Shown here: positions 10,177 to 33,422 of the stretch, one piece after another
Position numbering within the stretch: the stretch's first letter is position 1
Layout of the letters: each line of letters starts with the position of its first letter
Assembly: GCA_016213925.1 (NCBI GenBank)
Contig: JACQZH010000007.1
Location: 30,951 to 94,950 of the forward strand
Reading direction: 5' to 3'
DNA length: 64,000 bases
Source of the DNA: Candidatus Omnitrophota bacterium
Lineage (GTDB): Bacteria > Omnitrophota > Gorgyraeia > B26-G9
Position numbers and translations under genes: made by a program
The notes under the pieces: generated by a model
What the model saw: only the letters and a program-made list of their open reading frames with translations
What the model was told of the DNA's origin: nothing
Database searches by the model: none

Positions 10177-10266
10177 GGAGAGTTGGCAGAGCGGCCGAAT
10201 GCGGCGGTCTCGAAAACCGTTATCCGGGTAACTGGATCAGGGGTTCGAATCCTCTACTCTCCGCCA
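10177..10266 (+). tRNA. tRNA-Ser (anticodon CGA), class II with long variable arm, CCA encoded.
   Basis: Acceptor GGAGAGU/ACUCUCC, anticodon loop CUCGAAA, long variable arm, T-loop UUCGAAU, discriminator G + CCA. Confidence 0.85.
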
Positions 10267-10645: not shown

Positions 10646-11506
10646 ATGAATAAAGAAATAACCGCGACTAAAATAGCAATTTTCAGAAAACGCGAAATCC
10701 GCAGGACTATTCATAAGGATGAATGGTGGTTTTCAGTGATTGATATAGTAGAAGCGCTTACGGGCACTAATAGGGGTAGAAAATATTGGAGCGATCTTAA
10801 GAAAAAGCTTATTGAAGAAGGGTATAGTGAAGTGTCCGAAAAAATCGGACAGTTGAAAATGATAGCTCCAGCTGGGAAATTAAGGCTTACGGATTGCGCT
10901 AATACAGAAACAATGTTTCGCATAGTACAGTCTATCCCATCTCCGAAAGCCGAACCTTTTAAGCGGTGGTTGGCTCGGGTCGGTTACGAGCGAATTCAGG
11001 AAATTGAGCACCCAGAGCTTGCCACAAAAAGGACAAGGGCGTTATATAAGGCTAAAGGGTATAGCGATGAATGGATCGAGAAACGAATGCGTGGAATTGC
11101 TATCCGTGAGGAGTTAACTGAGCAGTGGCAGAAGCGCGGCATTAAAGAGAAAAAGGGATACGAAATATTGACCGCTGACATATCGAAAGCGACATTTGGC
11201 ATGACCCCATTGGCTTACAAGAAACACAAGGGGCTTAAGCGTGAAAATCTGCGGGATCACATGACTGATCTTGAACTTATCTTTTCAATGCTTGGTGAGG
11301 CATCAACGAAAGAGATCGCCATTAATAAAGATGCTCAAGGGTTTGGGGAGAACAAACAGGCGGCGTTTGAAGGCGGCGCTGTGGCTGGCAACGCAAGAAA
11401 AGAGCTTGAGCGCAAAAGCGGCAAAAGAGTTATTAGCAAAGAAAATTATAAAAGATTACCGCAGAATAAGAAGCTGTTAAGAGTGGATAGTAGTTTCGAC
11501 AAGTAG
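10646..11506 (+). CDS. Bro-N domain / DinD-like (DNA-damage-inducible protein D family, phage antirepressor-like) protein.
   Basis: N-terminal IRRTIHKDEWWFSVIDIVEAL ... YWSDL resembles the Bro-N/DinD pattern; the central KHKGLKRENLRDHMTDLEL resembles DinD. Confidence 0.55.
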   Translation: MNKEITATKIAIFRKREIRRTIHKDEWWFSVIDIVEALTGTNRGRKYWSDLKKKLIEEGYSEVSEKIGQLKMIAPAGKLRLTDCANTETMFRIVQSIPSPKAEPFKRWLARVGYERIQEIEHPELATKRTRALYKAKGYSDEWIEKRMRGIAIREELTEQWQKRGIKEKKGYEILTADISKATFGMTPLAYKKHKGLKRENLRDHMTDLELIFSMLGEASTKEIAINKDAQGFGENKQAAFEGGAVAGNARKELERKSGKRVISKENYKRLPQNKKLLRVDSSFDK

Positions 11507-25031: not shown

Positions 25032-25216
25032 ATGGATAAAGATAATACGTAATAGCAGATATCTTTATGGATAGGCATACATATAGGAGGCATATTGAGG
25101 GTGTTTATTAAGTAAGAAAGAGTAACCAGCAACCAGAGTACAGAAACCAGGAATTAGAAACTAAAAACTGGAGACACTAAAAGTAAATAACTAGTTCAAA
25201 GGAAAAGGAGCGATAA

Positions 25217-25420
25217 ATGAATAAAAAAGTAAAATGCCCGGAGTGCAAAAGCGAGATCGAAGTTGATTCCAGCGTTTCAGTGGGAGATATCGAACAGTGT
25301 TTAAACTGCGACATAGAATTAAAAGTAGTGAGCGTGATTCCGTTAAAGCTTGAAATAATGACTTGCAATTTTTCTGATGATGACGAAATGGATGAGGATG
25401 ACGAGGAAAATATGGATTAA
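25217..25420 (+). CDS. LysW-like zinc-ribbon amino-group-carrier-type protein with acidic C-terminal tail (67 aa).
   Basis: KCPECKSEIEVDSSVSVGDIEQCLNCDIELKVVSVIPLKLE matches the LysW pattern CPECG-x-ELELENPELGELV-x-C-x-DCGAELEVVGLDPLRLE. Followed by DDDEMDEDDEENMD. Confidence 0.55.
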   Translation: MNKKVKCPECKSEIEVDSSVSVGDIEQCLNCDIELKVVSVIPLKLEIMTCNFSDDDEMDEDDEENMD

Positions 25421-25482
25421 TTTTTCTTTGAACAATTAAGTGCAGCGGCCAGGATAAGCGTTAAAGAATAAAGCTGTTTTCT

Positions 25483-25524
25483 AAGAACTCTTTAAATTTT
25501 CAGTTGAAGAGTTCTTGTTTTTTT
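25483..25524 (+). terminator. Rho-independent terminator downstream of the LysW-like gene.
   Basis: aagaactctt ... aagagttctt 10-bp stem followed by a T7 run. Confidence 0.6.
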
Positions 25525-25672
25525 GGTATTTTTTTGGGTTGACGCTTAGGGCAGAATGGGGTAGTATAGGTGTCTATAAGATCAAAAAAGCAGCAACCAG
25601 AAACCAGTAACCAGAGATTAAAGCAAGTTTTTACGTATAGGCGGTAAAATTCAGGAAAGGGAAAGCAGCTAA

Positions 25673-27187
25673 ATGAAAGTTTTTTTAGCAGGATTTAATA
25701 TTGATACAGATGTTTTACGGCAGATGCAAGAAAAATCAGGGCGGCGCCAGGACATAACTCCGGAGGTTATTTGCGCTGCGTACGCGCGTATCAGCCGGGA
25801 TCCGCGTCCGGTTAATGAAATACGCCAGGATGCAAGAAACGAAGTTGAACGTTCCCGCAAATCAAATTCAACGATAATATTTAAAATGGGCCACCACTCT
25901 GTTGCCGAGCACGCGGTATTTAATCTGGATATTTTAGAGGTTTCCCGTTTCGCGATGGAAGAGCTTGAAAAGTTCAGGCTGTGTTCTTATACGGAAAAAT
26001 CGCAGCGCTATATTACGCTGGATAATGATTTTGTTGTTCCAGAGGAGATTAAAAACACTTGTTTTGAAGAGATGTTTATTTCCATGATTGAACAGCAGAA
26101 CAAAGCTTATTTTAAATTATTTGAACGGCTTAAAGAATATATTTTCGAAAAACACGCTCAATTGGCAAAGGACCCCAAAAATCATAATCTGCTGGAAGGA
26201 TGGGCAAAAGAAGATGCCCGTTATGTTACGGCACTGGCAACACATTCGCAAGTTGGGCAGACAATTAACGCGCGTAACCTGGAGCTTTTGCTGCGCAGAT
26301 TTGCTTCGCATCCTTTATCCGAAATAAAACAACTGGGAATTTCTATATATAATCAGATAGCAAGCATTGCTCCTTCTATTGTTATCTTCAATGAGGCGAA
26401 CGAACGTGACCTGAAAACGTATCCGGGTTTAAAAAAAGCGGCAAAAGAGCTGCTTGCAAAGGTGCCGCTTAAGCTTGCGCCGGGCACGCAGCAGAATGTA
26501 CAGCTGGTAGAATTTACGAAAAACGGAGATCTGGCAGTTGCGGCCGCGCTACTGCATGCGGCAACCGAGCTTACCTATGAAGATTGCCGCGTTGTTGCGG
26601 AAAAATTATCGCAAGAAGAGCAGAAAATGCTTTTTAAAAACGTATGGGAAAATATGCAGTTTTATGATTCCATGCTGCGCGAATTTGAATATACGAATCT
26701 CACTTTTAATATTGTTTTATCCGCGGCTTGTTTTGGACAGCTTAAACGCCACCGCATGTCAACAATATCAGCTCAAGAATATGATCCGAACCTGGGTGTT
26801 ACTGTGCCTGAATCGGTTAAAGAAACCGGCATGGAAAAATATTTTCAGGAAATTATTGATAAAACAAATGCTGTCTATAATAATATCAGCCGCGAAATTC
26901 CGATAGCCGCGCCATATATTTTAACTAACGCGCATCGTAAGAGAGTATTATTGCGCCTTAATGCGCGGGAACTTTACCACATATCCAGGTTAAGGGAAGA
27001 TACGCATTCTCAATGGGATATTCGTAATATTGCCGCGGGCATGAGCCAGAAAGCTAAACAGGTAATGCCGCTTACATTCGCTTGCATTGGAGGCAAAGAT
27101 AAGTATAGCGAGATTTACAAAAATCTTTATGGCCGGCTGCCAAAGGTAACTCAAGCTGTACTACCGCAGCCGCGGTCAATTACATAA
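25673..27187 (+). CDS. thyX: Flavin-dependent thymidylate synthase ThyX, tandem-duplicated (two ThyX domains in one 504-aa chain).
   Basis: Domain 1 has the SQRY end of the ThyX motif (RLCSYTEKSQRY). Domain 2 has the RHR beginning (RHRMSTISAQEY). Confidence 0.7.
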   Translation: MKVFLAGFNIDTDVLRQMQEKSGRRQDITPEVICAAYARISRDPRPVNEIRQDARNEVERSRKSNSTIIFKMGHHSVAEHAVFNLDILEVSRFAMEELEKFRLCSYTEKSQRYITLDNDFVVPEEIKNTCFEEMFISMIEQQNKAYFKLFERLKEYIFEKHAQLAKDPKNHNLLEGWAKEDARYVTALATHSQVGQTINARNLELLLRRFASHPLSEIKQLGISIYNQIASIAPSIVIFNEANERDLKTYPGLKKAAKELLAKVPLKLAPGTQQNVQLVEFTKNGDLAVAAALLHAATELTYEDCRVVAEKLSQEEQKMLFKNVWENMQFYDSMLREFEYTNLTFNIVLSAACFGQLKRHRMSTISAQEYDPNLGVTVPESVKETGMEKYFQEIIDKTNAVYNNISREIPIAAPYILTNAHRKRVLLRLNARELYHISRLREDTHSQWDIRNIAAGMSQKAKQVMPLTFACIGGKDKYSEIYKNLYGRLPKVTQAVLPQPRSIT

Positions 27188-30674: not shown

Positions 30675-30860
30675 TAGTCAAAATTAATTTACTGCCAGAT
30701 ATTTCTTAGGAATCCGTAAAATATAACCTAATTTGACATTGCGTAATAAAAAGATGTGATTTATAATATAAGACGGAACGTTACCGAGTTTCAAAAGGAA
30801 ATATTACTCAACAAGATTAATTCGGCCAGATAAGTTATGGCCTCACTAAGGAGCGCGTAT

Positions 30861-33422
30861 ATGAGCCAAGAGTTTACCGGTAATGAAGCCCGGCAGAATG
30901 ACGGCGATTCCGGGCAGAATAAAGCGGATCAAACGCAGTGGATAAGCATAAAACGCCCGATGACAAAAGACGGGGTAATAAGCTCGTTTAAGGATAACCG
31001 CCAGTATTTTCTGGCGAAGGACCAATATTCCGCGACAAAATACGATAATTTTATGGCTATGGCCATGTCTATTCGCGATCGGCTCGTAGAACGGTGGATT
31101 CTTACCCAGCAGCGTTACCACCGGGAAAATTTAAAAAGAGTTTATTATCTTTCCATGGAGTTTTTAATCGGCCGCCTCTTGGCAAATAATATCTTAAACC
31201 TGGGGATTTGGGATGAATCGCTTCAGGCGCTTGAAGAAATTGGTTTTGATGCGGATACGCTATTAAACCAAGAACCGGACGCGGGATTGGGAAACGGCGG
31301 ATTAGGAAGGCTGGCTGCCTGTTTTCTTGATTCAATGGCAACGCTTGGAATTCCGGCGTACGGCTACGGTATAAGGTATGATTACGGGATTTTTCATCAA
31401 AAGATTATCGACGGATACCAGGTAGAATTGCCGGATGAGTGGCTTAAGCGCGGTAACCCCTGGGAATTTGCCAGGCCTGAATATACGGTCAAGGTACGTT
31501 TTTACGGGAAGACCCGCTCATTTCATGACCGCAACGGCAGATTAAGGGTTGTCTGGGCTGATACAAAAGATGTTCTTGCCGTCCCCTATGATTTTCCGGT
31601 GCCCGGATATAAAAATGATGTTGTAAATACCTTGCGCTTATGGTCAGCGCGCAGCGCAGAAGAGTTCGATTTTGAATATTTCAATGACGGGGATTATGAG
31701 CGCGCGGTGTATGACCAGGTTTTTTCAGAGAATATTTCAAAGGTGTTATATCCGAATGATATTATTATCCAGGGTAAAGAATTACGATTAAAACAGGAAT
31801 ATTTTTTTACGGCAGCCGCGATTTCGGATATTATCCGCAGGTTCAAGGCGGATAACTCTGATTTGCGCGTTTTTCCTGAAAAAGCGGTTATTCAGCTTAA
31901 TGATACTCATCCGTCTCTGGCCATTGTTGAGCTGATGCGTATTTTAATCGATGAAGAAGATATGGAATGGGACAGCGCCTGGAATATTGTATCCAGGTCA
32001 TTTGCTTATACAAACCATACAATTATGCCGGAAGCGCTGGAATCCTGGCCGGTTCCGTTGTTTGAGAAAATTTTGCCCAGGCATCTGCAATTGATTTATG
32101 AAATAAACCACCGGTTTTTAAGAGAGGTTGCCAACCGCTATCCCTGGGACCAGTTTAGGCTGGGGAGGATGTCTATAATAGAAGAAGGAGATCCTAAATA
32201 TATAAGAATGGCCTATCTTAGTATTGTCGCCAGTTATTCCATTAACGGGGTTTCTGCGCTGCATTCAAAGTTGATAAAAGAAACGCTTTTTAAGGATTTT
32301 CATGATTTATGGCCGGAAAAGTTCAATAATAAAACTAACGGAGTTACCCAGCGGCGCTGGTTAAGAAAAGCCAATACCGGCTTAGCGGGTTTGATAAGCA
32401 AAACAATTTCCGATAAATGGATAACGAACCTTAATGAACTGGAAAACCTGATGCAGCATATCGAAGACCCTTCCTTTAGAGAACAATGGCGGCAGGTTAA
32501 AGCGGAGAACAAAAAAAAGCTTTCCAATTATATCTTCCAAACACTGCATATACAGGTTAATCCAGAAGCGTTGTTTGATGTGCAGGTTAAAAGAATCCAT
32601 GAATATAAACGCCAGCTTTTGTTCGGGCTTTATATCATTTCCCAGTATTTGAAATTAAAAGATAACCCCAATGCCGGGATTCTGCCGCGGACATTTATTT
32701 TCGGCGGAAAATCAGCGCCGGGATATTTTATGGCAAAGCTGGCGATTAAATTTATCAGCCGGATTGCCGATATCATAAATAATGACAAGGGAGTAAAAGA
32801 TATTTTGCGGGTAGCTTTCCTGGAAAATTACAGTGTTTCTTTAGCGGAAAACATATTCCCTGGCAGCGATCTTTCCGAGCAGATATCAACAGCCGGAACC
32901 GAGGCGTCCGGGACGGGATGCATGAAGTTTATGCTTAACGGAGCGTTGACGATCGGTACCTTAGACGGGGCTAACATTGAAATAAAAGAAGCGGTTGGAA
33001 ATGAGAATCTTTTTATTTTCGGGTTAAGAGAATCGGAAGTGCAGGCGCTTAAACATGGAGGATATGACCCGAAACAATACATTAGCCGTTCACCGATGTT
33101 AAAAGAAGTGTTTTCTTTGATTCAGAGCCACTTCTTTTCACCGCTTGACCCGGATCTTTTTGACCCGATAATAGACAACTTGCTTCTAAAGGATCCGTTT
33201 ATGATTTGTGCGGATTTTGATTCTTACTGTCAGGCGCAGGATAGGGTTTCTTCGGAATACCGCAACTTGGATGTCTGGACAAAGAAATCGATTGTTAATA
33301 CCGCTAAGTCAGGAAAATTTTCCAGCGACCGCACAATTGCCGAATACGCCAAACAGATATGGGGCGTGCCGGTTAATCAAAAGCTTTGCGGGGAATTTTT
33401 GGGGTCGGGTCAAAACTATTGA
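30861..33422 (+). CDS. glgP: Glycogen/alpha-glucan phosphorylase. Start at 30861 preferred because of the SD AAGGAG.
   Basis: EASGTGCMKFMLNGALTIGTLDGANIE (PLP-Lys region); about 850 aa and family-typical throughout. Confidence 0.9.
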   Translation: MSQEFTGNEARQNDGDSGQNKADQTQWISIKRPMTKDGVISSFKDNRQYFLAKDQYSATKYDNFMAMAMSIRDRLVERWILTQQRYHRENLKRVYYLSMEFLIGRLLANNILNLGIWDESLQALEEIGFDADTLLNQEPDAGLGNGGLGRLAACFLDSMATLGIPAYGYGIRYDYGIFHQKIIDGYQVELPDEWLKRGNPWEFARPEYTVKVRFYGKTRSFHDRNGRLRVVWADTKDVLAVPYDFPVPGYKNDVVNTLRLWSARSAEEFDFEYFNDGDYERAVYDQVFSENISKVLYPNDIIIQGKELRLKQEYFFTAAAISDIIRRFKADNSDLRVFPEKAVIQLNDTHPSLAIVELMRILIDEEDMEWDSAWNIVSRSFAYTNHTIMPEALESWPVPLFEKILPRHLQLIYEINHRFLREVANRYPWDQFRLGRMSIIEEGDPKYIRMAYLSIVASYSINGVSALHSKLIKETLFKDFHDLWPEKFNNKTNGVTQRRWLRKANTGLAGLISKTISDKWITNLNELENLMQHIEDPSFREQWRQVKAENKKKLSNYIFQTLHIQVNPEALFDVQVKRIHEYKRQLLFGLYIISQYLKLKDNPNAGILPRTFIFGGKSAPGYFMAKLAIKFISRIADIINNDKGVKDILRVAFLENYSVSLAENIFPGSDLSEQISTAGTEASGTGCMKFMLNGALTIGTLDGANIEIKEAVGNENLFIFGLRESEVQALKHGGYDPKQYISRSPMLKEVFSLIQSHFFSPLDPDLFDPIIDNLLLKDPFMICADFDSYCQAQDRVSSEYRNLDVWTKKSIVNTAKSGKFSSDRTIAEYAKQIWGVPVNQKLCGEFLGSGQNY

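What the first reader, a model, noticed from the sequence alone, without database searches (positions are those of the whole stretch)
25217..25420. Orphan LysW-like zinc-ribbon carrier protein with an acidic tail that ends in Asp
The 67-aa protein aligns motif-for-motif with the LysW/ArgW amino-group carrier proteins (CPECxxEIE ... CxNCxxELxVVSxxPLxLE plus an acidic C-terminus). However, no LysX/LysZ/LysY/LysJ/LysK-like genes are nearby; it has its own terminator, and thyX follows. The tail ends ...EENMD rather than the canonical C-terminal Glu used for substrate ligation. It could be a carrier for an uncharacterised pathway, or a repurposed zinc-ribbon protein.
Basis: partly seen in the sequence, partly recalled or inferred. 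Interest (0 to 1): 0.55.

Follow-up and report, generated by a model that had tools for sequence, protein, structure and literature searches.

The report
LysW-fold zinc ribbon, non-carrier acidic tail
This is a real 67-residue zinc-ribbon protein with the fold of the lysine-pathway carrier LysW, but it lacks the carrier's defining tail and partner genes and belongs to a widespread, unstudied group with variable acidic tails that databases often mislabel as LysW.

Summary
ORF 25217-25420 (+) encodes a 67-aa protein with four zinc-ligand Cys, a LysW-type ribbon and a 20-residue acidic tail ending ...EENMD. It has a Shine-Dalgarno site and its own terminator, and a tandem thyX follows. The ribbon is a genuine LysW homologue: Pfam PF21344 scores 38.8 bits (cut-off 27), and the six best PDB fold matches are all LysW (rmsd 0.8 A).

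It is not a canonical amino-group carrier. It scores 31.1 bits on TIGR01206 (cut-off 53.2), whereas control proteins ending EDWGE score 69-89. It has no EDWGE motif and no C-terminal Glu. No ATP-grasp or LysX/Z/Y/J/K gene lies in the 64 kb.

It groups with at least 141 single-ribbon relatives whose acidic tails vary in length (12-66 aa) and in last residue, which argues against a fixed covalent loading site. In other Omnitrophota these genes often follow an ArsR-type regulator and sit beside a small exported acidic protein. That context is absent here.

My best reading is a non-covalent, electrostatic binding or regulatory protein. This is inferred, not shown. Interest is moderate to low: a new variant of a known fold, and an annotation caveat.

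The parts
25217..25420 (+). CDS of the 67-aa LysW-fold protein (stop codon included)
   Evidence: ORF list. An identical protein is on record as HY810_01145, MAG Candidatus Omnitrophica.
25205..25210 (+). Shine-Dalgarno AAGGAG, 6 nt before the ATG
   Evidence: Read from the sequence. Homologues in other loci also carry GGAGG-type sites.
25229..25357 (+). Zinc-ribbon globular domain (residues 5-47). Ligand Cys: C7 at 25235-25237, C10 at 25244-25246, C28 at 25298-25300, C31 at 25307-25309.
   Evidence: PF21344 covers residues 5-46. The four Cys are invariant across 32 relatives. AF2 pLDDT >90, five beta strands. The best PDB matches are LysW.
25358..25417 (+). Disordered polyacidic tail MTCNFSDDDEMDEDDEENMD (residues 48-67): 11 D/E, 0 K/R, ends in Asp, no EDWGE
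   Evidence: Composition. pLDDT 51-64 with no secondary structure. Compared with canonical tails.
25482..25527 (+). Intrinsic terminator-like hairpin (14 pairs, 3 G-C) followed by a T-run, 62 nt after the stop
   Evidence: Consensus scan; inverted repeat I4. Weak sub-threshold Rfam hits to 3'UTR hairpin families only.
25124..25150 (+). Three AACCAG repeats in the upstream leader (25124, 25131, 25145). They are paralogous to a block upstream of thyX at 25595-25614. Membership in the gene's regulation is inferred.
   Evidence: These are the only two clusters of at least 3 AACCAG within 50 nt on either strand of the window. Only 1 of 300 shuffles gives even one such cluster. A 44-nt direct repeat is 73% identical; alignment.

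Best explanation
The gene encodes a small cytoplasmic zinc-binding protein. Its first ~47 residues fold like LysW. Its last 20 residues form a flexible, strongly negative arm.

It belongs to a large, uncharacterised branch of the LysW-fold family (PF21344). This branch has kept the ribbon but replaced the short, invariant carrier tail (...APxEEDWGE) with longer acidic tails of variable length, sequence and terminus.

I propose that it does not carry a covalently attached amino acid. Instead the ribbon plus polyanionic arm docks non-covalently onto a positively charged surface of a partner protein. This is the same electrostatic recognition LysW uses with its enzymes, but here it would serve a binding or regulatory role.

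In related Omnitrophota the most likely partner is the ArsR/SmtB-type DNA-binding regulator encoded immediately upstream, with the acidic arm competing with or modulating DNA binding. The same module also contains a small exported acidic protein. In this genome the gene has been separated from that module and is expressed on its own, with its own Shine-Dalgarno site, leader and terminator.

Shown: the fold, the tail chemistry, the absence of carrier hallmarks, and the gene-neighbourhood statistics. Inferred: non-covalent binding, the identity of the partner, and the regulatory outcome.
For: Fold: PF21344 at 38.8 bits; AF2 plus Foldseek give six LysW chains as the best matches.

Not a carrier:
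- TIGR01206 31.1 against 53.2 and NF041070 22.4 against 75.
- Controls: three EDWGE-ending proteins score 69-89 bits on TIGR01206, and seven acidic-tail relatives score 18-38.
- No EDWGE and no terminal Glu. These are the loading site and the LysX recognition element (PMC10433800).

Family behaviour, from 141 single-ribbon acidic-tail relatives:
- Tail length is 12-66 aa (median 23).
- The last residue is E27, Y18, D13, F12, S11, W10, H9, A8 and others, so charge is conserved but no attachment residue is.
- All 12 canonical sequences in the same search end EDWG[E/Q] or EDWAE.

Context:
- No ATP-grasp or LysZ/Y/J/K in the window.
- No GSWGR-like LysX motif in any ORF of the window or of the 65 ArsR-anchored loci.
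- 5 of 7 other Omnitrophota lineages looked up have an ArsR gene directly upstream, in one case with overlapping stop and start codons.
- Starting from the ArsR side, 16 of 42 species-representative loci carry a LysW-like gene within 600 bp downstream on the same strand.
- One locus (L053) reads in frame from ArsR into the LysW-like domain.
- The small exported protein co-occurs in 14/16 loci with a LysW-like gene against 8/26 without (Fisher p=4e-4).

The window protein is as similar to the ArsR-linked proteins (mean 41.6% in the ribbon) as they are to each other (40.2%). AmCPs are known to bind basic patches of their enzymes electrostatically (PMC11726168).
Against: - No partner is identified in this window. 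tblastn finds no ArsR-subfamily gene and no exported-protein homologue within 64 kb.
- The ArsR association is partial: 5 of 7 lineages from the LysW-like side and 16 of 42 from the ArsR side. It could reflect co-regulation rather than physical interaction.
- The single in-frame fusion (L053) sits in a MAG whose ArsR part has an internal TAG, so it may be an assembly error or a pseudogene.
- The ribbon alone cannot separate this protein from true carriers. It is 53.5% identical to a canonical LysW, P0063, so the non-carrier call rests on the tail and the context.
- In acidic-tail relatives from other phyla the context varies and contains no ArsR.
- There are no experimental data on any member.
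Confidence: 0.45

Rival explanations
1. It is a true amino-group carrier protein for an uncharacterised pathway. A ligase encoded elsewhere in the genome would attach a substrate to the C-terminal Asp or another tail carboxylate, and downstream enzymes would work on the tethered intermediate.
For: - The ribbon is a genuine LysW homologue, up to 53.5% identical to a canonical LysW.
- AmCPs are known outside lysine and arginine synthesis, in secondary-metabolite clusters (PMC11726168; bioRxiv 10.1101/2021.03.18.436031).
- In three Omnitrophota lineages (P0155, P0156, P0090) the homologue lies two genes upstream of a KamA-type 2,3-aminomutase and ATP-grasp ligases. One such cluster also has a faint RimK/LysX-like protein (27 bits).
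Against: - It is below both curated LysW cut-offs (controls), with no EDWGE and no terminal Glu.
- The terminus is not conserved across 141 relatives. In the three KamA-linked lineages themselves the proteins end in W, S and Y.
- The neighbouring ATP-grasps are D-Ala-D-Ala-ligase-like, not LysX-like, and carry no GSWGR motif.
- The KamA/ATP-grasp cluster tracks the ArsR gene, not the LysW-like gene: 3/16 loci with it against 8/26 without, p=0.49.
- Nothing of the kind lies in this 64-kb window.
Confidence: 0.12
2. It is a metal-handling protein. The Cys4 site and the carboxylate-rich tail would buffer or deliver zinc or other divalent cations, as part of a metal or ion-stress response governed in relatives by the ArsR/SmtB-type metalloregulator.
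For: - The neighbouring regulator in relatives matches the ArsR/SmtB metalloregulator subfamily model NF033788 (79 bits against a cut-off of 55).
- The protein has a Cys4 site and 11 carboxylates in 20 residues.
- The co-occurring exported protein also has an acidic tail.
- Mechanosensitive channels, a Na+/H+ exchanger and FeoAB appear in some neighbourhoods.
Against: - The Cys4 site is the structural zinc site of the LysW fold, not evidence of metal trafficking.
- In these regulators I saw only one invariant Cys and none of the ArsR/SmtB metal-site motifs I know. That reading is from the alignment and from memory; it was not tested.
- The aromatic residues that are frequent in relatives' tails suit protein-protein contacts better than metal chelation.
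- No metal transporter is adjacent in this window.
Confidence: 0.15
3. It is a chance ORF or a decaying remnant of a LysW gene with no present function.
For: - Only one identical sequence and no relative above 50% identity exists among about 15 billion proteins.
- It is isolated from any conserved partner gene.
Against: - Four invariant Cys, a Pfam hit above the gathering score, and a confident fold prediction.
- A good Shine-Dalgarno site and a terminator.
- The acidic-tail architecture is kept in more than 140 diverse relatives.
Confidence: 0.03

Closest known systems
LysW / ArgW amino-group carrier proteins (T. thermophilus 3WWL/5EIO, T. kodakarensis 5K2M, S. tokodaii 3VPB; TIGR01206, NF041070)
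   Same: Same Cys4 zinc-ribbon fold (rmsd 0.8 A), 33-44% identity over about 45 residues, an overall acidic protein, and an acidic C-terminal extension.
   Different: The tail is 20 rather than about 10 residues. It has no EDWGE motif and ends in Asp, not Glu. The protein is below both curated HMM cut-offs. No LysX/Z/Y/J/K genes are nearby.
AmCPs of secondary-metabolite clusters (vazabitide/ficellomycin/azinomycin type; Serratia Ser2)
   Same: A LysW-like acidic carrier used outside primary metabolism, recognised through basic patches on partner enzymes (PMC11726168).
   Different: Those sit inside biosynthetic clusters with LysX/Z/Y/J-like enzymes. This gene has no such cluster. I did not have their tail sequences to compare.
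Omnitrophota ArsR-linked LysW-like proteins (e.g. P0155/L021, P0029/L028, P0059/L065); uncharacterised, defined here
   Same: Same architecture (ribbon plus variable acidic tail), same phylum, and ribbon identity within the family's own range (41.6% against 40.2%).
   Different: The window gene lacks the upstream ArsR-type regulator and the adjacent exported DUF5666-like acidic protein. Instead it lies between a TPR/YfiO-like gene and thyX.
Small archaeal zinc-finger regulators (Brz, HVO_0758/HVO_2142-type micro-proteins)
   Same: Single CxxC...CxxC ribbon proteins of 50-70 aa. Weak cross-hits of LysW-type sequences to these models.
   Different: The hits are far below cut-off (about 11-19 bits against 28-100). 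There is no evidence of homology beyond the generic ribbon. I use them only as a functional analogy for regulatory micro-proteins.

Membership tests
PF21344 Zn_ribbon_LysW (LysW-like globular domain) | Profile match above Pfam's gathering score | tested here: met
   38.8 bits against 27, E=7.2e-10, residues 5-46 on profile positions 1-42 of 46.
PF21344 Zn_ribbon_LysW (LysW-like globular domain) | LysW three-dimensional fold with a Cys4 zinc site | tested here: met
   AF2 pLDDT >90 for the ribbon. The top six Foldseek PDB hits are all LysW; 5eio_C has rmsd 0.8 A. C7, C10, C28 and C31 are invariant in 32 relatives. Zinc binding itself was not measured.
LysW/ArgW amino-group carrier protein (AmCP) | Score above the curated equivalog/domain cut-offs (TIGR01206 53.2; NF041070 75) | tested here: not met
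   31.1 and 22.4 bits. EDWGE-ending controls score 68.7-89.1 on TIGR01206, and seven acidic-tail relatives score 17.7-38.0.
LysW/ArgW amino-group carrier protein (AmCP) | C-terminal EDWGE motif recognised by the GSWGR motif of LysX/ArgX | tested here: not met
   The tail is ...DEDDEENMD and has no Trp or Gly. The motif definition comes from PMC10433800.
LysW/ArgW amino-group carrier protein (AmCP) | C-terminal Glu whose gamma-carboxyl is amide-linked to the substrate | tested here: not met
   The last residue is Asp67. Relatives show no conserved last residue. Whether Asp could be loaded cannot be tested in silico.
LysW/ArgW amino-group carrier protein (AmCP) | Co-occurrence with a LysX-type ATP-grasp ligase and LysZ/LysY/LysJ/LysK | tested here: inconclusive
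   None is present in the 64-kb window, and there is no GSWGR motif. The rest of the MAG was not available.
LysW/ArgW amino-group carrier protein (AmCP) | Covalent substrate adduct on the protein | not testable with these tools
   Requires mass spectrometry.
Omnitrophota ArsR-linked LysW-like module (provisional, defined here) | Ribbon plus variable polyacidic tail matching the family profile | tested here: met
   75.9 bits on the A1 profile, but the protein is itself a row of A1. Independent measure: ribbon identity of 41.6% to ArsR-linked members, against 40.2% among those members.
Omnitrophota ArsR-linked LysW-like module (provisional, defined here) | ArsR/SmtB-subfamily regulator immediately upstream on the same strand | tested here: not met
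   The upstream gene is a TPR/YfiO-like protein. tblastn finds no ArsR-subfamily gene in the window.
Omnitrophota ArsR-linked LysW-like module (provisional, defined here) | Adjacent small exported DUF5666-like acidic protein | tested here: not met
   No blastp or tblastn hit in the window.

The most novel reading that the evidence does not exclude
The acidic-tailed LysW-fold proteins, including this one, would be a distinct functional class that nobody has described: small polyanionic partners of DNA-binding or other basic proteins. In Omnitrophota they would work with an ArsR-type repressor and an exported acidic protein in an envelope or ion-stress module. In that case the amino-group carriers of lysine and arginine synthesis would be only one specialised offshoot of a broader protein-binding fold. 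A less likely version is that they are carriers loaded at non-Glu termini by a ligase type not yet recognised.
Probability: 0.25. Interest if true: 0.6.

Novelty: new variant of a known kind. Interest (0 to 1): 0.35.

Why it matters
There is a practical point. Public annotation calls many of these proteins 'lysine biosynthesis protein LysW' or 'alpha-aminoadipate carrier protein' (names, e.g. P0029 and P0175). Yet they fail the curated cut-offs and lack the loading motif. Metabolic reconstructions of Omnitrophota, Acidobacteriota and other phyla could therefore wrongly infer an aminoadipate pathway.

There is also a biological point. In one phylum there is a statistically supported link to an ArsR-type regulator and an exported acidic protein. 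If that link is a physical interaction, it would be a new type of small regulatory partner.

For this particular gene the gain is modest, because no partner is visible in the window.

Tried and rejected
- The word-indexed homologue search with the single protein found only the protein itself. The exhaustive phmmer search and a profile search were needed.
I anchored on the neighbouring ArsR gene instead.
- Is the KamA aminomutase/ATP-grasp cluster the missing 'LysX' partner? Rejected. It occurs in 3/16 ArsR loci with a LysW-like gene and 8/26 without (p=0.49). The ligases are Ddl-like and there is no GSWGR motif.
- A link to glycogen metabolism. Glycogen genes lie near the LysW-like gene in the window, L002 and L003, but not in the other loci. 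I treat this as coincidence.
- A conserved adjacency to thyX. None of the homologue loci shows it.
- A known RNA element in the leader. There is no Rfam match; only sub-threshold terminator-hairpin hits.
- The AACCAG leader motif is not present upstream of homologues in other loci.
- Ribbon sequence alone does not separate this protein from canonical LysW, so no clade assignment from the 44-residue domain was attempted.
- Literature searches for LysW-like proteins with acidic tails or for PF21344 found nothing on this class.

Full report
**1. The observation**

AAGGAG lies 6 nt upstream of the ATG. A 14-pair hairpin followed by a T-run lies at 25482-25517. An identical protein is on record as a hypothetical protein (HY810_01145) of a Candidatus Omnitrophica MAG.

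The next gene (25673-27187) is a 504-aa ThyX with two Thy1 stretches. Upstream lie two pseudopilin-like genes, an FG-GAP protein and a TPR/YfiO-like protein.

I scanned 40 of the window's ORFs of at least 120 aa against Pfam. The 21 not scanned are under 210 aa or lie inside larger genes. None scanned is an ATP-grasp ligase, an amino-acid kinase, a semialdehyde dehydrogenase, an acetylornithine-type aminotransferase or a deacylase. A family HMM finds only this one LysW-like ORF in the window.

**2. Homology to LysW**

The relationship is real.
- Pfam PF21344 (LysW-like globular domain) matches residues 5-46 at 38.8 bits against a gathering score of 27.
- phmmer against PDB sequences finds only LysW chains with meaningful E-values: 5k2m_E at 3.4e-5 and 3wwl_A at 5.5e-5.
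- An AlphaFold model built on 32 relatives is confident for the ribbon (pLDDT >90 to about residue 40, five strands) and low for residues 51-67.
- The six best Foldseek matches in the PDB are all LysW chains. The best, 5eio_C, has rmsd 0.8 A over 45 columns.
- The four Cys are invariant in the 32-sequence alignment.

**3. Is it a LysW/ArgW carrier?**

The literature defines these carriers by three or four zinc-binding Cys plus a C-terminal EDWGE motif. The last Glu of that motif is amide-linked to aminoadipate or glutamate. The motif is recognised by a GSWGR motif in LysX/ArgX, and an E54A change abolishes function (PMC10433800).

The window protein has the Cys but fails the rest:
- Its tail, MTCNFSDDDEMDEDDEENMD, has no Trp or Gly and ends in Asp. 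It is 20 residues long rather than about 10.
- It scores 31.1 bits on TIGR01206 (cut-off 53.2) and 22.4 on NF041070 (cut-off 75).
- As a control, three EDWGE-ending proteins from my own searches score 68.7-89.1 bits on TIGR01206. Seven acidic-tail relatives score 17.7-38.0. The cut-off separates the two kinds cleanly, and the window protein falls with the second.

I therefore do not file it as a LysW/ArgW carrier.

**4. What it groups with**

An exhaustive phmmer search of 1.84 billion cluster representatives gave 172 hits at E<=1e-3. A profile search added named sequences, the closest of them from Omnitrophota. Sorting the single-ribbon proteins gives three kinds:
- 12 canonical sequences, all ending EDWG[E/Q] or EDWAE.
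- 4 short sequences ending EEEK/EEK.
- 141 sequences with long acidic tails.

In the acidic-tail group the tail is 12-66 residues (median 23). The last residue is E in 27, Y in 18, D in 13, F in 12, S in 11, W in 10 and H in 9, with others rarer. Negative charge is conserved, often mixed with aromatic residues, but length, sequence and terminus are not. That pattern suits an electrostatic arm and argues against a precise covalent attachment site.

The ribbon alone does not separate the groups. The window protein's ribbon is on average 34% identical to canonical LysW (maximum 53.5%) and 39% identical to acidic-tail proteins (maximum 52%). The distinction rests on the tail and on context.

**5. 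Context in relatives**

I looked up seven other Omnitrophota-type homologues.
- Five have an ArsR/SmtB-family HTH gene directly upstream on the same strand. In L010 the stop and start codons overlap.
- Six have a small unannotated gene directly beside the LysW-like gene. Translation shows a signal peptide and an acidic tail, with weak DUF5666 similarity in two.
- Three have, further downstream, a KamA-family 2,3-aminomutase fused or adjacent to D-Ala-D-Ala-ligase-like ATP-grasp enzymes.

To get numbers, I used the ArsR alignment to fetch 65 loci from species-representative genomes. Of these, 45 match the ArsR query at 41% identity or more, and 42 of those have at least 700 bp downstream.
- 16 of the 42 carry a LysW-like gene within 600 bp downstream on the same strand.
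- The exported protein is present in 14/16 loci with a LysW-like gene against 8/26 without (Fisher p=4.4e-4).
- The KamA/ATP-grasp cluster is present in 3/16 against 8/26 (p=0.49).

The aminomutase cluster therefore goes with the regulator, not with the LysW-like gene. It is not the missing 'LysX' system. No GSWGR-like motif occurs in any ORF of these loci or of the window.

In one locus (L053) the ArsR reading frame runs straight into the LysW-like domain. That ArsR carries an internal TAG, so the fusion needs confirmation.

In two acidic-tail relatives from other lineages, a Bryobacteraceae genome and a second set of contigs, the neighbourhoods differ and contain neither an ArsR gene nor an ATP-grasp.

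**6. Where the window gene stands**

Its ribbon is as similar to the ArsR-linked proteins (mean 41.6%) as they are to one another (40.2%). It is an ordinary member by sequence. But none of the module's other genes is in the window: no ArsR subfamily, exported protein, KamA, ATP-grasp or recurrent 333-aa protein. It has no relative above 50% identity anywhere, so synteny in close relatives cannot be examined. It appears to be expressed alone.

**7. Mechanism**

Shown: a LysW-fold Cys4 ribbon; a disordered 20-residue tail with 11 acidic and no basic residues; absence of the carrier motif and of carrier-pathway genes in 64 kb; and membership of a large clade whose only conserved tail property is negative charge.

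Established knowledge: LysW-type proteins bind positively charged patches on their partner enzymes by electrostatics (PMC11726168).

Inference: this protein uses the same docking principle without covalent loading. It would act as a small polyanionic binding or regulatory partner of a basic protein. In relatives the best candidate partner is the co-operonic ArsR-type regulator. I give this 0.45.

Rivals:
- A true carrier with an unknown ligase elsewhere (0.12).
- A metal-buffering role (0.15).
- A functionless remnant (0.03).
The remaining probability is for functions I cannot name.

**8. Novelty and score**

The fold is known. The gene is not a new kind of system, and this instance carries no informative context. 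What is new is modest: a non-carrier variant of the LysW fold that is numerous, unstudied as far as the searchable literature shows, and often annotated as LysW by automated pipelines. I rate it a new variant of a known kind, with interest 0.35.

Noticed in passing
window 25113-25156 and 25577-25620: The leaders of the LysW-like gene and of thyX share a 44-nt block (73% identical). Each block contains three AACCAG repeats. These are the only two such clusters on either strand of the 64 kb, and only 1 of 300 shuffles gives even one. This may be a shared regulatory or translational element. There is no Rfam match, and the motif is not seen upstream of homologues elsewhere.
   Followed up: partly
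window 25673-27187: ThyX is 504 aa with two Thy1 stretches, about twice the single Thy1 domain (Pfam profile 191 positions), so it looks like a tandem-duplicated form.
   Followed up: no
L003 2060-7018; L006 7454-12944; L011 2060-5329; 11 of 42 ArsR loci: A recurrent Omnitrophota cluster lies behind an ArsR-type regulator. It contains a KamA-family 2,3-aminomutase (below the lysine, glutamate and arginine equivalog cut-offs), fused or adjacent to Ddl-like ATP-grasp ligases, with variously a GNAT, an S66 peptidase and a faint RimK/LysX-like protein. It may make a beta-amino-acid product such as a compatible solute or a peptide.
   Followed up: partly
L003 2709-3116; L006 8188-8592; L010 3420-3800; L011 2647-3051; L009 7676-7999; L002 7484-7945: A small exported protein is strongly linked to the LysW-like gene (14/16 against 8/26 loci). 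It has a signal peptide, a short beta-rich domain with weak DUF5666 similarity, and an acidic tail. No Pfam family matches above threshold.
   Followed up: partly
L053 1617-2162: The ArsR reading frame continues without a stop into the LysW-like domain, a possible gene fusion. The ArsR part has an internal TAG at an otherwise invariant Gln codon, so this may be an error or a pseudogene.
   Followed up: partly
L009 8252-8449: A 65-aa extremely basic Ala/Lys-rich protein (histone-H1-like composition) is encoded right after the acidic-tailed LysW-like gene. Only this locus and its duplicate L065 show it.
   Followed up: no
proteins P0002-P0010 and many others; P0052, P0064, P0085, P0146; L043 6928-7101: Other LysW-fold architectures turned up. 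There are tandem two- and three-ribbon proteins of 115-212 aa, many with basic tails. There is a short class ending EEEK/EEK. In L043, a second ribbon gene without an acidic tail lies directly after the acidic-tailed one.
   Followed up: no
P0029, P0175, P0219 and others: Source annotations name acidic-tail proteins 'lysine biosynthesis protein LysW' or 'alpha-aminoadipate carrier protein LysW'. The members I tested score 18-38 bits on TIGR01206 (cut-off 53.2) and lack EDWGE, so this is probably over-annotation.
   Followed up: yes
window 10177-10263 and 10646-11506: A tRNA gene is followed about 400 bp later by a BRO-N domain protein. This could mark an integrated mobile element.
   Followed up: no
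window 30837-33422; L002 5170-7302 and 8518-14661; L003 7021-9489: Glycogen or glucan genes lie within a few kb of the LysW-like gene in three loci: a phosphorylase, a CBM48 alpha-amylase, and a 2047-aa glucan-water-dikinase-like protein. They are absent from the other loci, so I judge this coincidental.
   Followed up: partly
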